A DNA stretch of 2,086 nucleotides, taken from the NCBI GenBank assembly GCA_000004985.1, contig GG739291.1; one strand, given 5' to 3'. The position numbers were made by a program, and so were the translations under genes. The notes below the pieces were generated by a model. The model saw only the letters and a program-made list of their open reading frames with translations. It was not told the origin of the DNA and did not search any database. Position 1 is the stretch's first letter. Each line of letters begins with the position of its first letter. Shown here piece after piece: positions 1 to 2,086 of this stretch. The stretch comes from Naegleria gruberi (lineage: Eukaryota).

Positions 1-1332
1 TGGCCTTGCACAAATGCACAATTATATAGTCCTTTAGGTGTTTTTGTTTCATCAAATAATGAAGTTTATATATCTGACTGTTTTAATCATAGAATTAGAA
101 AGGTATTACATAATGGAAATATTGTAACAATAGCTGGAAATGGAACACCTGGATTCAGTGGAGATTCTCCATTTGATATTTCACTCTATCCTCATTTCGG
201 AAATAGTAGCTCTTTAACTAGAAGAATAGAATTTCATAGTTTGAAAAAATATTCAAGAGATCAATTATTTGGATTGGAAATTTATGGATTCATGCCACTA
301 ATTGAAAGAATATCAATTCAATTCAGTCAAATTCTGAAAAATGAAAAGATAATTTGGTCAATGAATGCTTCACAACGTGCAATTATTCAAAAACTAATTA
401 ATTCTCTCATATATGATAATAATCAATTGAATTTTACAAAGAATGAACTATTAGATGTATTATTTATTTTAGGATTATTTAAAAATGGCGAATTTATTGA
501 GCTTAAAAGATCATTGACAAGTGATTTTATTAATTCCATTACCTTGAAAGAATTTCCTGCTGAATGGGAAAAAATTGAATCGCTGATCATGACATGCAAA
601 GATTTTGGAAATGAAAATTACATTCTTGAATGCTTGAACAATTTCTGTATTGAATTTGTTGCTGTCAAAATGAAGACCACAGAGGGAAGTGCTGTTTTGT
701 CTTCCCTTCCAATAGTTTTGCGAAATGCTACTGCTTTTTTCCCAAAATTGGTACTTGGTCAACCAACCCCAATCAACATTGAAGAAAAAATTGAAGTTAA
801 TCCACAAACATTAGAATCATTATTTAACGATAAGAAAACAAGTGATATTCAAATCAAAATGGGAGAAGACAAGTATTTATATTGTCACAAAACTGTTTTG
901 AGCACCACTAGTACCTTCTTTGCTGCCCTATTTGAAAGTGGATCATCCTTTAGTGATTTTAATAATGGAATTTTCACACCAGATGAATCAGAAGATTTGG
1001 AATTATTGGAAATTATCATCAAATATTGTTATGGAATTTCATTCGACAATGAAAAAATTTCTGGATTGTTAGACATGGCAATGAAACATGAAATTAAATA
1101 TTTAGTCGATTATTATTGTATTAATTTCACGCTCTCCATTCAAAATTACTTTTCCATTGTATCAACATGTGAACAGTATTTGGATTTACCTGTATTTGAA
1201 GGATTTTTCAAAGAAATTATTAGATTTGGAGTTACCAACAAGAAGCAACTCTTTACTGATTTGAGTGTTCTTTCTAAATTACCTGAAAAAGTTTGGCAGG
1301 TGATGTTCTTGAATTGGGCTCATGATAATTGA
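1..1332 (+). CDS. 5'-partial CDS of an NHL-repeat plus BTB/POZ-domain protein. Frame 1 is open from window position 1 and the stop is TGA at 1330-1332.
   Basis: Seen in sequence: frame 1 has no stop codon from nt 1 to 1329, which is 443 codons in a sequence of about 70% AT. Nt 22-201 translate to LYSPLGVFVSSNNEVYISDCFNHRIRKVLHNGNIVTIAGNGTPGFSGDSPFDISLYPHFG, which fits the NHL-repeat consensus (P.Gvavd..g.iyVaD..NhRIrk....G...tiaG.G..G..gd). Nt about 826-1140 translate to SDIQIKMGEDKYLYCHKTVLSTTSTFFAALFESG...LLDMAMKHEIKYLVDYYCINFTL, a classic BTB/POZ core. The ORF-track start at 241 is TTG, rendered as M under bacterial start rules. There is no in-frame ATG upstream, so the true start lies beyond the left edge or in an upstream exon. 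Confidence 0.8.
   Translation, partial: WPCTNAQLYSPLGVFVSSNNEVYISDCFNHRIRKVLHNGNIVTIAGNGTPGFSGDSPFDISLYPHFGNSSSLTRRIEFHSLKKYSRDQLFGLEIYGFMPLIERISIQFSQILKNEKIIWSMNASQRAIIQKLINSLIYDNNQLNFTKNELLDVLFILGLFKNGEFIELKRSLTSDFINSITLKEFPAEWEKIESLIMTCKDFGNENYILECLNNFCIEFVAVKMKTTEGSAVLSSLPIVLRNATAFFPKLVLGQPTPINIEEKIEVNPQTLESLFNDKKTSDIQIKMGEDKYLYCHKTVLSTTSTFFAALFESGSSFSDFNNGIFTPDESEDLELLEIIIKYCYGISFDNEKISGLLDMAMKHEIKYLVDYYCINFTLSIQNYFSIVSTCEQYLDLPVFEGFFKEIIRFGVTNKKQLFTDLSVLSKLPEKVWQVMFLNWAHDN
22..235 (+). other. NHL-repeat (beta-propeller blade) region: one well-formed blade at about 22-150 followed by a degenerate blade (...YPHFGNSSSLTRRIEF).
   Basis: Motif SDCFNHRIRKV...IVTIAGNGTPGFSGD...LYPHFG read directly in frame 1. 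Assignment to the NHL family (Pfam PF01436-type) rests on motif recognition by eye, not on an HMM search. Confidence 0.6.
808..1140 (+). other. BTB/POZ domain. A short BACK-like helical tail follows at 1141-1329.
   Basis: DIQIKMGEDKYLYCHKTVLSTTSTFFAALFESG matches the BTB beta-strand/helix signature (D..l.v.g..f.aHr.vLaa.S.yF.amf.sg). It is followed by LLEIIIKYCYG...LLDMAMKHEIKYLVDYYC (l.fiYtg.v.l...nv..lL.aA..l.i..L...C). Recognition is by eye. Confidence 0.7.
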
Positions 1333-1384
1333 GCTAATAACTTTAATGTTTATTTTTATTCCTCTTTTAAAAAATTGTGAACTA
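1333..1384. other. 52-bp inter-stop region shared by the two convergent 3' UTRs.
   Basis: The TGA of the plus gene ends at 1332 and the TAA of the minus gene begins at 1385. The region is about 80% AT. The plus strand has no canonical AATAAA here, only the variant AATAAC at 1336-1341. The next plus-strand AATAAA is at 1725-1730, inside the kinase CDS. Confidence 0.5.
1349..1360 (-). terminator. Tandem canonical poly(A) signal AATAAAAATAAA for the kinase gene. It lies 25-38 nt 3' of that gene's stop codon.
   Basis: Plus-strand tttatttttatt at 1349-1360 is AATAAAAATAAA on the minus strand. Its spacing downstream of the TAA at 1385-1387 is typical for a eukaryotic polyadenylation signal. Function is inferred, not demonstrated. 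Confidence 0.4.
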
Positions 1385-2020
1385 TTAGAATTTCAAGTTG
1401 TAAAACACTGGACTATTCGAATCCTGAATATTATTGGTTACACTTGCTGAATTGCCATTATTATTATTATTTGGTGGAAATCTGTCATTGAACTCACCAA
1501 CAACTTGTGAATTATTATTTTGTAAAGTATTAAAAGTATTAATTATTGTAAAATTTGAAGATGATTTTAGTGGAGTTTGAATTCCAGATCTATCTAAAGG
1601 GTTATATCCAATAACAATTGATCTTTTTTCATTAGTTTGAATTGTTTGTAATGTTGGAACTAATTTCCTTTTTTTGGAAGGTTGTTCTTTTTGTTCATTT
1701 TGTAAAATGTTTGCTGTTAATTTCAATAAATGTTTTTGTAATTCCGCAAATGATGGTCTTGATTTTGGATTATATTCCAAACAACTATTTCCTATTCTAA
1801 TAACTTCATTGGCTTGATTGAGTGTTAAACAAGGAAATAATTCCAATAATTCGTTTGTTGAGAGAAAGCAAGTTAATCTTTCATTATTTTCAATGTGTTT
1901 TTGAGAAAATAATTCATACATTGTAACTCCAAAACTGTAAACATCCAATGCCGTGAGAAGATATTCTTTTTGGAAATCTTTCGGTTTGTGTTGCATTCGT
2001 TTTTCATAAATTTCAGGAGC
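1385..2020 (-). CDS. Terminal exon of a protein kinase, TKL-like with Raf/MLK-like spacing. It encodes the C-lobe (APE to subdomain XI) plus a low-complexity C-terminal tail of about 110 residues. The stop is TAA at 1385-1387 on the minus strand.
   Basis: Minus-strand translation from the acceptor: APEIYEKRMQHKPKDFQKEYLLTALDVYSFGVTMYELFS...CLEYNPKSRPSFAELQKHLLKL. This gives APE (subdomain VIII), DVYSFG (subdomain IX) and the conserved Arg of subdomain XI. The ORF-track Met at 1996 (MQHK...) is internal to the kinase domain and is not a start. Confidence 0.85.
   Translation of the reverse strand, partial: APEIYEKRMQHKPKDFQKEYLLTALDVYSFGVTMYELFSQKHIENNERLTCFLSTNELLELFPCLTLNQANEVIRIGNSCLEYNPKSRPSFAELQKHLLKLTANILQNEQKEQPSKKRKLVPTLQTIQTNEKRSIVIGYNPLDRSGIQTPLKSSSNFTIINTFNTLQNNNSQVVGEFNDRFPPNNNNNGNSASVTNNIQDSNSPVFYNLKF
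1457..1471 (-). repeat. (AAT)5 trinucleotide microsatellite encoding an Asn5 run in the kinase tail (PPNNNNNGN).
   Basis: Plus-strand attattattattatt at 1457-1471. On the minus strand it reads in frame as aat x5, flanked by cca cca and ggc aat. Confidence 0.6.
1661..1681 (-). other. SV40-type monopartite NLS-like basic motif PSKKRKL in the kinase C-terminal tail.
   Basis: The reverse complement of 1661-1681 is cct tcc aaa aaa agg aaa tta, translating to PSKKRKL. It matches the K(K/R)X(K/R) consensus and resembles PKKKRKV. Nuclear targeting is inference only. Confidence 0.35.
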
Positions 2021-2067
2021 CTTTAGAAAGTAAATTCTTAGATTGAATTAAATGAGACAAAACTTAC
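2021..2067 (-). other. 47-nt spliceosomal intron, phase 0, GTAAGT...AG.
   Basis: Minus-strand sequence: gtaagttttgtctcatttaattcaatctaagaatttactttctaaag. Without splicing the reading frame hits TAA after 9 codons. With splicing, ...GTFQYM joins APEIYEK..., which restores the near-invariant kinase activation-segment motif GT..YMAPE. Confidence 0.7.
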
Positions 2068-2086
2068 CATGTATTGAAAGGTTCCT
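2068..2086 (-). CDS. 3' end of the upstream kinase exon (partial; it continues beyond the right edge). It encodes ...GTFQYM.
   Basis: Reverse complement of 2068-2085 is GGA ACC TTT CAA TAC ATG, translating to GTFQYM, immediately 5' of the GTAAGT donor. The rest of the kinase (the N-lobe, HRD and DFG motifs) must lie to the right of the window. Confidence 0.6.

What the first reader, a model, noticed from the sequence alone, without database searches (positions are those of the whole stretch)
2021..2086. The window is eukaryotic: a phase-0 GTAAGT...AG intron splits the kinase activation-segment motif YM|APE
On the minus strand the exon ending ...GGAACCTTTCAATACATG (GTFQYM) is followed by GTAAGT and 47 nt ending in AG, then GCTCCTGAA (APE). 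Read unspliced, the frame terminates at TAA after 9 codons. Read spliced, it yields the canonical protein-kinase subdomain VIII motif GTFQYMAPE. This fixes the reading of the whole window as a compact eukaryotic locus rather than a bacterial island. Operon, defence-system or TTG-start readings are therefore inappropriate, and the start codons in the ORF track are unreliable.
Basis: partly seen in the sequence, partly recalled or inferred. Interest (0 to 1): 0.5.

Follow-up and report, generated by a model that had tools for sequence, protein, structure and literature searches.

The report
Short intron in Naegleria kinase gene
The window is a whole 2-kb scaffold of the amoeba Naegleria gruberi, and the flagged 47 bases are almost certainly an ordinary short spliceosomal intron interrupting a protein-kinase gene; the only new point is that the public gene model omits it.

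Summary
On the minus strand, GGAACCTTTCAATACATG (GTFQYM, 2085-2068) is followed by 47 nt (GTAAGT...CTAAAG, 2067-2021) and then GCTCCTGAA (APE, 2020-). The unspliced frame stops at TAA after 9 codons.

Both proteins in the window are 100% identical to Naegleria gruberi "predicted proteins" recorded on a 2086-bp contig, so the window is a complete small eukaryotic scaffold.

Evidence that the 47 nt are an intron:
- Removing them raises the Pfam Pkinase score from about 26-28 bits (below threshold) to 35-37.5 bits (above it). The other three frame-preserving GT..AG removals do not.
- 48 of 82 homologues align through GTxxYMAPE with no gap at M|APE.
- A 57%-identical homologue on a separate contig has a GTAAGT...AAAG intron at the same codon boundary. 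It is 49 nt long and its interior is unrelated, while the flanking exons are conserved (dN/dS below 1).

No transcript data could be consulted. The public model starts at Met 1996 and omits the intron and upstream exon. This is an ordinary U2-type intron in a lineage-specific kinase gene cut off by the scaffold end, so interest is low.

The parts
2068..2086 (-). 3' end of the upstream kinase exon, cut by the scaffold end. Codons 2085..2068 encode GTFQYM, the activation-segment P+1 loop just before APE.
   Evidence: sequence and translation; 15 of 18 nt are identical to the homologue L001 419-436 (GTYQYM); the Pkinase alignment starts at residue 1 only when this exon is joined by the 47-nt removal.
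2021..2067 (-). Inferred 47-nt phase-0 U2-type spliceosomal intron, GTAAGT...CTAAAG. It has branch-point-like TTAAT and CTAAG motifs, with their A residues 27 and 17 nt before the 3' end.
   Evidence: for this window; the homologue L001 has a 49-nt GTAAGT...ACAAAG intron (437-485) at the same codon boundary, and the interior identity of 20/50 is at shuffle level. There is no transcript evidence.
1385..2020 (-). Last exon of the kinase gene. It runs from APE (subdomain VIII) through DVYSFGV (IX) and RPSF (XI), then about 110 residues of N/Q/S-rich tail, and ends at the TAA stop (1387..1385).
   Evidence: PF07714 and PF00069 match to the end of the profiles; 1385..1996 is 100% identical to N. 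gruberi P0001; codon-position differences against L001 are 40/28/63, with dN 0.34 and dS 1.9.
1333..1384 (.). 52-nt spacer (19% GC) between the stop codons of two convergent genes. On the minus strand it carries AATAAA at 1360 and 1354 and ATTAAA at 1347, downstream of the kinase stop.
   Evidence: That these motifs act as polyadenylation signals is inference only.
1..1332 (+). Neighbouring convergent gene, cut by the other scaffold end. It is the C-terminal 443 codons of an NHL-repeat plus BTB/POZ protein and is context, not part of the intron.
   Evidence: BTB 44.6 bits at residues 271-372, NHL 21.4 bits at residues 8-34; residues 35-443 equal P0090 'predicted protein, partial [N. gruberi]', and paralogues of about 700-760 aa are 46-67% identical.

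Best explanation
The window is a complete 2086-bp scaffold of the nuclear genome of Naegleria gruberi, a heterolobosean amoeboflagellate. Its right end carries the 3' part of a protein-kinase gene on the minus strand. Positions 2067..2021 are a 47-nt, phase-0, U2-type GT-AG spliceosomal intron between the codons for Met and Ala of the activation-segment/subdomain VIII sequence GTFQYM|APE. The spliceosome would recognise the consensus 5' site GTAAGT, a branch adenosine in TTAAT or CTAAG, and the 3' AG. Removing the intron joins the two frames and gives an uninterrupted kinase C-lobe followed by a low-complexity tail. If the intron is retained, translation stops after 9 codons, before the C-lobe. 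The rest of the gene (N-lobe and catalytic loop) lies beyond the scaffold end. Shown here: the sequence, the organism, the frame logic, the profile and homologue fit, and an intron at the same position in a homologue. Inferred: actual splicing, the branch site, and kinase activity.
For: Organism: searches give 100% identity of both products to N. gruberi proteins on a 2086-base contig. The 28.7% GC is of the order of the genome's 33% (PMC8296547).
Frame logic.
Profile test in the window: the spliced product scores 35.2-37.5 bits on Pkinase, from residue 1 to profile 159-260, above the cut-off of 31.7. Exon 2 alone, or the 38-, 86- and 98-nt alternative removals, score 25.7-28.7 bits, which is below the cut-off and does not use the upstream exon.
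Homologues: 48 of 82 HMMER hits align from residue 1-2 through M|APE without a gap.
Comparative test: on L001 the same boundary carries GTAAGT...ACAAAG of 49 nt. The spliced L001 product is a single Pkinase stretch (residues 7-240, profile 41-258, 108.9 bits), whereas the read-through product ends at profile position 167. Exon flanks are conserved (15/18 and 238/367 nt) while the intron interior is at chance level. Differences concentrate at third codon positions, and dN/dS is about 0.2-0.4.
Background: N. gruberi genes average 1.7 exons.
Against: No cDNA or RNA-seq could be examined, so splicing is not observed. Only one homologue with the intron was found. It is probably a paralogue from an N. 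gruberi-like genome rather than an orthologue from another species, because L004 from the same sample is 100% identical to an N. gruberi protein. The comparison therefore spans limited phylogenetic depth. The nearest full-length paralogues have no intron at this site. The public model P0001 does not include the intron. At 47 nt it is far below the reported mean intron length of 203 bp for N. gruberi. I could not retrieve the length distribution to show how common introns this short are.
Confidence: 0.93

Rival explanations
1. Decaying gene fragment or assembly artefact. On this view the 47 nt are an insertion or frameshift in a dead kinase copy on a junk mini-scaffold, and the GT/AG ends are coincidental.
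For: The scaffold is tiny and both genes are truncated. The public annotation does not splice here. No near-identical full-length copy was found.
Against: A consensus GTAAGT and an AG sit exactly at the two codon boundaries. An independent contig has an intron at the same boundary with a different length and unrelated interior. Exon 2 is an intact 211-codon frame with a third-position excess of differences and dN/dS below 1.
Confidence: 0.03
2. A real intron that uses another splice-site pair. The candidates are the 38-nt removal (donor GTCTCA at 2058, giving GTFQYMVSFAPE) and the 86- or 98-nt removals from the donor at 2063.
For: All three keep the reading frame open.
Against: Their Pkinase scores are 26.9-28.7 bits against 37.5 for the 47-nt removal, and the upstream exon drops out of the alignment. 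They insert or delete residues inside GTxxYMAPE, which is ungapped in 48 homologues. Their donors are non-consensus. L001 supports the GTAAGT boundary.
Confidence: 0.02
3. The public model is right. On this view an independent 203-aa protein starts at ATG 1996, and the upstream GTFQYM is not part of it. The prokaryote-style reading with separate ORFs amounts to the same claim.
For: P0001 is annotated this way. On L001 a metagenome gene caller likewise split the homologue into two 'genes'.
Against: Such a protein would begin in the middle of a kinase C-lobe and scores below the Pkinase cut-off (27.7 bits). The frame stays open upstream of the ATG, back to the AG at 2021. The two 'genes' on L001 join into a single 108.9-bit kinase domain. 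The organism is a eukaryote with spliceosomal introns.
Confidence: 0.02

Closest known systems
U2-type GT-AG spliceosomal introns of Naegleria gruberi (genome of Fritz-Laylin et al. 2010, as cited and tabulated in PMC8296547 and PMC3488318)
   Same: It has a consensus GTAAGT 5' site and a 3' AG. It is AT-rich with a yUnAy-like motif upstream of the 3' end. It lies in phase 0, and its removal restores the frame. The host genome averages 1.7 exons per gene.
   Different: At 47 nt it is much shorter than the reported mean of 203 bp. It is absent from the public gene model. Splicing was not observed here.
Eukaryotic protein kinase domain (Pfam PF00069 / PF07714), subdomains VIII-XI
   Same: The spliced product matches profile positions 159-260 above the gathering score. 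It shows GTxxYMAPE, DVYSFG and the subdomain XI arginine.
   Different: Only the C-lobe is in the window. The homologue L001 shows HYD in place of HRD and DFD in place of DFG, so catalytic competence is open. A low-complexity tail of about 110 residues follows the domain.
N. gruberi paralogous kinases XP_002674560.1 (P0012), XP_002671040.1 (P0084) and XP_002674929.1 (P0013)
   Same: They come from the same organism. Apart from the much longer P0003 (28% identity), they and their cluster-mates are the best-scoring full-length relatives, at 32-36% identity over the C-lobe. They share the extended insert between APE and DVYSFGVTM.
   Different: P0012 and P0084 are encoded without an intron at YM|APE, as single uninterrupted tblastn segments on L004 and L002. 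Sequence identity to the window is low.
Homologue P0002 on metagenome contig L001 (ENA ERZ929261)
   Same: It is 57% identical over the C-lobe. It has an intron at the identical codon boundary with the same GTAAGT and AAAG ends.
   Different: Its intron is 49 nt rather than 47, with an unrelated interior. Its C-terminal tail and downstream neighbour differ (a zf-C3HC4-like gene rather than NHL-BTB).

Membership tests
U2-type GT-AG spliceosomal intron | 5' splice site GT, with consensus GTAAGT/GTRAGT, immediately after the upstream exon | tested here: met
   GTAAGT lies at 2067..2062 on the minus strand.
U2-type GT-AG spliceosomal intron | 3' splice site AG immediately before the downstream exon | tested here: met
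   The sequence ...CTAAAG ends at 2021 and GCT (Ala) starts at 2020.
U2-type GT-AG spliceosomal intron | Branch-point motif (yUnAy) a short distance upstream of the 3' site | tested here: inconclusive
   TTAAT and CTAAG are present, with their A residues 27 and 17 nt from the 3' end. L001 has TTAAT with its A 18 nt from the end. Such motifs are common in 23% GC sequence, and no Naegleria consensus was available to score against.
U2-type GT-AG spliceosomal intron | Removal restores a continuous reading frame that matches homologues without a gap | tested here: met
   this is the only one of the 4 frame-preserving removals that lifts Pkinase above its cut-off, and 48 of 82 homologues are ungapped at the junction.
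U2-type GT-AG spliceosomal intron | Position conserved in a homologous gene while the intron interior diverges | tested here: met
   L001 437-485 is 49 nt at the same codon boundary. Interior identity is 20/50 against a shuffle mean of 0.49, and the exon flanks are 15/18 and 238/367 identical.
U2-type GT-AG spliceosomal intron | The spliced junction is observed in transcripts | not testable with these tools
   No RNA-seq or EST access was available. N. gruberi RNA-seq exists under PRJEB23822 (PMC6142364).
Eukaryotic protein kinase domain (PF00069/PF07714) | Profile match above the curated cut-off | tested here: met
   The spliced product scores 35.2-37.5 bits on PF00069 (cut-off 31.7) and 36.4-38.6 bits on PF07714 (cut-off 23.1).
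Eukaryotic protein kinase domain (PF00069/PF07714) | C-lobe motifs: APE (VIII), DxxxxG (IX) and the conserved Arg (XI) | tested here: met
   APE, DVYSFG and KSRPSF are in the translation and align with homologues.
Eukaryotic protein kinase domain (PF00069/PF07714) | Catalytic residues: VAIK Lys, HRD Asp, DFG Asp | not testable with these tools
   They lie beyond the scaffold end. In the homologue L001 the motifs read HYD and DFD, with both Asp residues present.
Bacterial or phage locus (operon or defence island) | Prokaryotic origin, with uninterrupted genes and usable ATG/GTG/TTG starts | tested here: not met
   Both products are 100% identical to N. gruberi nuclear proteins. The kinase domain is interrupted. 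The listed TTG and ATG starts lie inside longer open frames.

The most novel reading that the evidence does not exclude
The 47-nt intron could be more than a passive interruption. It might be a regulated, retention-prone short intron in the activation segment of a Naegleria-specific kinase clade. Its length is not a multiple of three and it has an in-frame stop, as does the 49-nt intron in the homologue. Retention would therefore give a truncated, C-lobe-less product or an NMD target. That would allow kinase output to be switched, for example during amoeba-to-flagellate differentiation. Nothing here tests this reading. It is merely not excluded.
Probability: 0.04. Interest if true: 0.4.

Novelty: new member of a known kind. 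Interest (0 to 1): 0.1.

Why it matters
Mainly for triage. The result settles that this window is not bacterial or viral, so any operon, defence-system or alternative-start reading of it should be dropped. It also corrects a public gene model. The 203-aa N. gruberi 'predicted protein' is the tail of a larger kinase gene whose upstream exon and intron were missed because the scaffold ends 19 bases into that exon. Prokaryote-style gene callers split the homologue in the same way on a metagenome contig. Beyond that it is an ordinary intron in an ordinary gene family.

Tried and rejected
I used the exon-2 translation instead and re-aligned the spliced product locally.
2. Fetching N. gruberi genomic DNA for P0001 and for the paralogues P0012, P0084 and P0013, to compare gene structures: none is on record. 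I used near-identical metagenome contigs L002-L004 instead.
3. Metagenome scan with the two-sequence profile: 33 loci, all at most about 36% identical over any substantial length, so only distant kinases. It added no further copy of this gene or intron.
4. Protein search with the spliced L001 kinase, looking for N. fowleri or N. lovaniensis orthologues: only P0002 itself, then plant and bacterial kinases at about 30% identity. This word-indexed search also missed P0002, so absence is weak evidence.
5. Rfam and tRNA scans of the window: nothing except a chance-level mir-338 hit (E = 0.96).
6. Literature: the 2010 Cell genome paper is not held. PRJEB11402 is not mentioned in any held paper. A search for a Naegleria splice-site or branch-point consensus failed on a syntax restriction and I did not repeat it.
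7. Alternative splice-site pairs: considered and rejected on profile score.
8. A U12-type intron: rejected by eye because there is no ATATCC/GTATCC 5' site.

Full report
**Observation**

- Positions 2085..2068 are GGAACCTTTCAATACATG (GTFQYM).
- Positions 2067..2021 are 47 nt, GTAAGTTTTGTCTCATTTAATTCAATCTAAGAATTTACTTTCTAAAG (23% GC).
- From 2020 the sequence is GCTCCTGAA (APE), in frame with the ORF 1385..1996(-) listed.
- Without splicing, the upstream frame reads VSFVSFNSI and then TAA.
- Because 47 is not a multiple of three, the two coding stretches are in different frames. The boundary falls between codons (phase 0).

**Source**

The exon-2 product is 100% identical to P0001, 'predicted protein [Naegleria gruberi]', recorded on a contig of 2086 bases. 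The + strand frame is open from base 1 to the TGA at 1330-1332. Its residues 35-443 equal P0090, 'predicted protein, partial [Naegleria gruberi]', recorded on a contig of the same length.

The window is therefore an entire mini-scaffold of the N. gruberi nuclear assembly. According to the table in PMC8296547, that genome is 41 Mb with 33% GC, 1.7 exons per gene and a mean intron length of 203 bp. The window has 28.7% GC. Rfam and tRNA scans found nothing meaningful.

**Is the 47-nt stretch an intron? Test 1: profile fit in the window**

- The spliced product matches Pfam Pkinase from its first residue (profile 159-260). It scores 35.2 bits for the full-length product and 37.5 bits for the domain only, against a cut-off of 31.7.
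- Exon 2 alone scores 25.7 bits. The public Met-1996 start scores 27.7 bits.
- I enumerated every GT..AG removal in the first 140 nt that keeps a long open frame and found four.
- The 38-, 86- and 98-nt alternatives score 26.9-28.7 bits, and the upstream exon drops out of their alignments.

**Test 2: homologues**

An exhaustive HMMER search with the exon-2 product returned 82 hits. I re-aligned the spliced product to them with BLASTP. In 48 of the 82, the alignment runs from residue 1-2 through the junction with no gap between M and APE, as in GTLGYMAPE, GTLYYMAPE and GTEEYMAPE. The kinase family therefore expects these residues to be contiguous.

**Test 3: comparison with a homologous gene**

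The best hit other than the window's own protein is P0002, at 57% identity. It lies on a 2018-bp ENA metagenome contig, L001.
- A prokaryote-style gene caller split the locus into two 'genes'.
- The DNA reads ...GGAACATATCAATATATG | GTAAGTGAGAACAATGTGATTTCTTGTGTTAATAGTTGTATGAACAAAG | GCACCTGAG..., which is GTYQYM, then 49 nt, then APE. The frame changes from 2 to 3.
- The spliced L001 product forms a single Pkinase stretch (residues 7-240, profile 41-258, 108.9 bits). The read-through product ends at profile position 167.
- Between the window and L001, the exon-1 tail is 15/18 nt identical and exon 2 is 238/367 identical. The intron interior is 20/50 identical, no better than shuffled sequence (mean 0.49). 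Only GTAAGT and AAAG are shared.
- Over 123 aligned codons, differences fall 40/28/63 by codon position. NG86 gives dN 0.34 and dS 1.9. The coding sequence on both sides of the junction is under purifying selection, which argues against a dead fragment.

**Limits of the comparison**

Contigs from the same sample encode proteins 100% and 97% identical to N. gruberi XP_002674560.1 and XP_002671040.1. The sample therefore contains an N. gruberi-like genome, and L001 is probably a paralogue rather than an orthologue from a distant species.

Two of the nearest full-length paralogues, P0012 and P0084, are encoded without an intron at this site. The intron therefore characterises a small subclade. 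A metagenome scan and a further protein search found no closer relatives and no N. fowleri orthologue.

**What is in the window**

There are two convergent, truncated genes.
- On the minus strand lies the last exon of a kinase (APE, DVYSFGV, RPSF, then an N/Q/S-rich tail of about 110 residues). It is preceded by the intron and 19 bases of the upstream exon.
- On the plus strand lie the last 443 codons of an NHL-repeat plus BTB/POZ protein. This belongs to an expanded N. gruberi family of about 700-760 residues.
- The two stop codons are 52 nt apart.
- The ORF-track starts are artefacts. TTG 241 is inside a frame that is open from base 1. ATG 1996 is inside the kinase C-lobe.

**Mechanism**

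This section is inferred from general knowledge of U2-type splicing. U1 would pair with GTAAGT. A branch adenosine in TTAAT or CTAAG, 27 or 17 nt from the 3' end, would attack the 5' site. The AG at 2022-2021 would define the 3' site. Splicing would join Met to Ala and produce an intact activation segment. A retained intron would stop translation after 9 codons. Catalytic competence cannot be judged from the window. The homologue has HYD and DFD in place of HRD and DFG, with both aspartates kept.

**Verdict**

Both the observation and the interpretation hold. The feature is an ordinary short spliceosomal intron in a lineage-specific kinase gene of a sequenced eukaryote. The only new element is that the public model (203 aa, starting at Met 1996) omits it. 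Transcript evidence such as PRJEB23822 would be decisive, and I could not consult it.

Noticed in passing
window 1-1332 (+): The neighbouring gene is the C-terminal part of an NHL-repeat plus BTB/POZ protein. N. gruberi has at least ten paralogues, 46-77% identical; most of the longer ones are about 680-760 aa. The short NHL stretch (about 12% of the query) is 45-65% identical to NHL repeats of many bacterial proteins (Spirosoma, Acidobacteriota and others). This may simply reflect repeat conservation.
   Followed up: partly
window 1-102 (+) and 1997-2086 (-): Both public gene models are shorter than the open frames. P0090 starts at nt 103, although the frame and an NHL match extend to nt 1. 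P0001 starts at the ATG at 1996 and omits 8 codons of exon 2, the intron and the upstream exon.
   Followed up: yes
window 1333-1384: Only 52 nt (19% GC) separate the stop codons of the convergent genes. The minus strand has AATAAA twice and ATTAAA once here, and the plus strand has none. The 3' UTRs must therefore be very short or overlap the opposite gene.
   Followed up: no
L001 1766-1821 (- strand): A second candidate short intron lies in the neighbouring gene of the homologous contig. It is 56 nt, GTAAGT...AAATAG, in phase 0, and joins ...LKQVEEKI to EMKMGSNQ..., which links two 'genes' called separately in different frames. There is no homologue support.
   Followed up: partly
L001-L004 (ENA ERZ929261 / ERR1078381, PRJEB11402): This 'metagenome' sample contains N. 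gruberi-like DNA. L004 encodes a protein 100% identical to XP_002674560.1, and L002/L003 encode one 97% identical to XP_002671040.1. The L001 kinase (P0002) has no counterpart among the named N. gruberi proteins that were found, so it may be unannotated there. No held paper mentions the project.
   Followed up: partly
L001 2-436 (+): The homologue's catalytic motifs are non-canonical. It has HYDIKPAN in place of HRD and KIADFD in place of DFG. Both aspartates are retained.
   Followed up: no
window 632-665 (+): The only Rfam hit is mir-338, at 20.3 bits against a gathering score of 57 and E = 0.96. It lies inside the BTB-protein coding sequence and is a chance match.
   Followed up: yes
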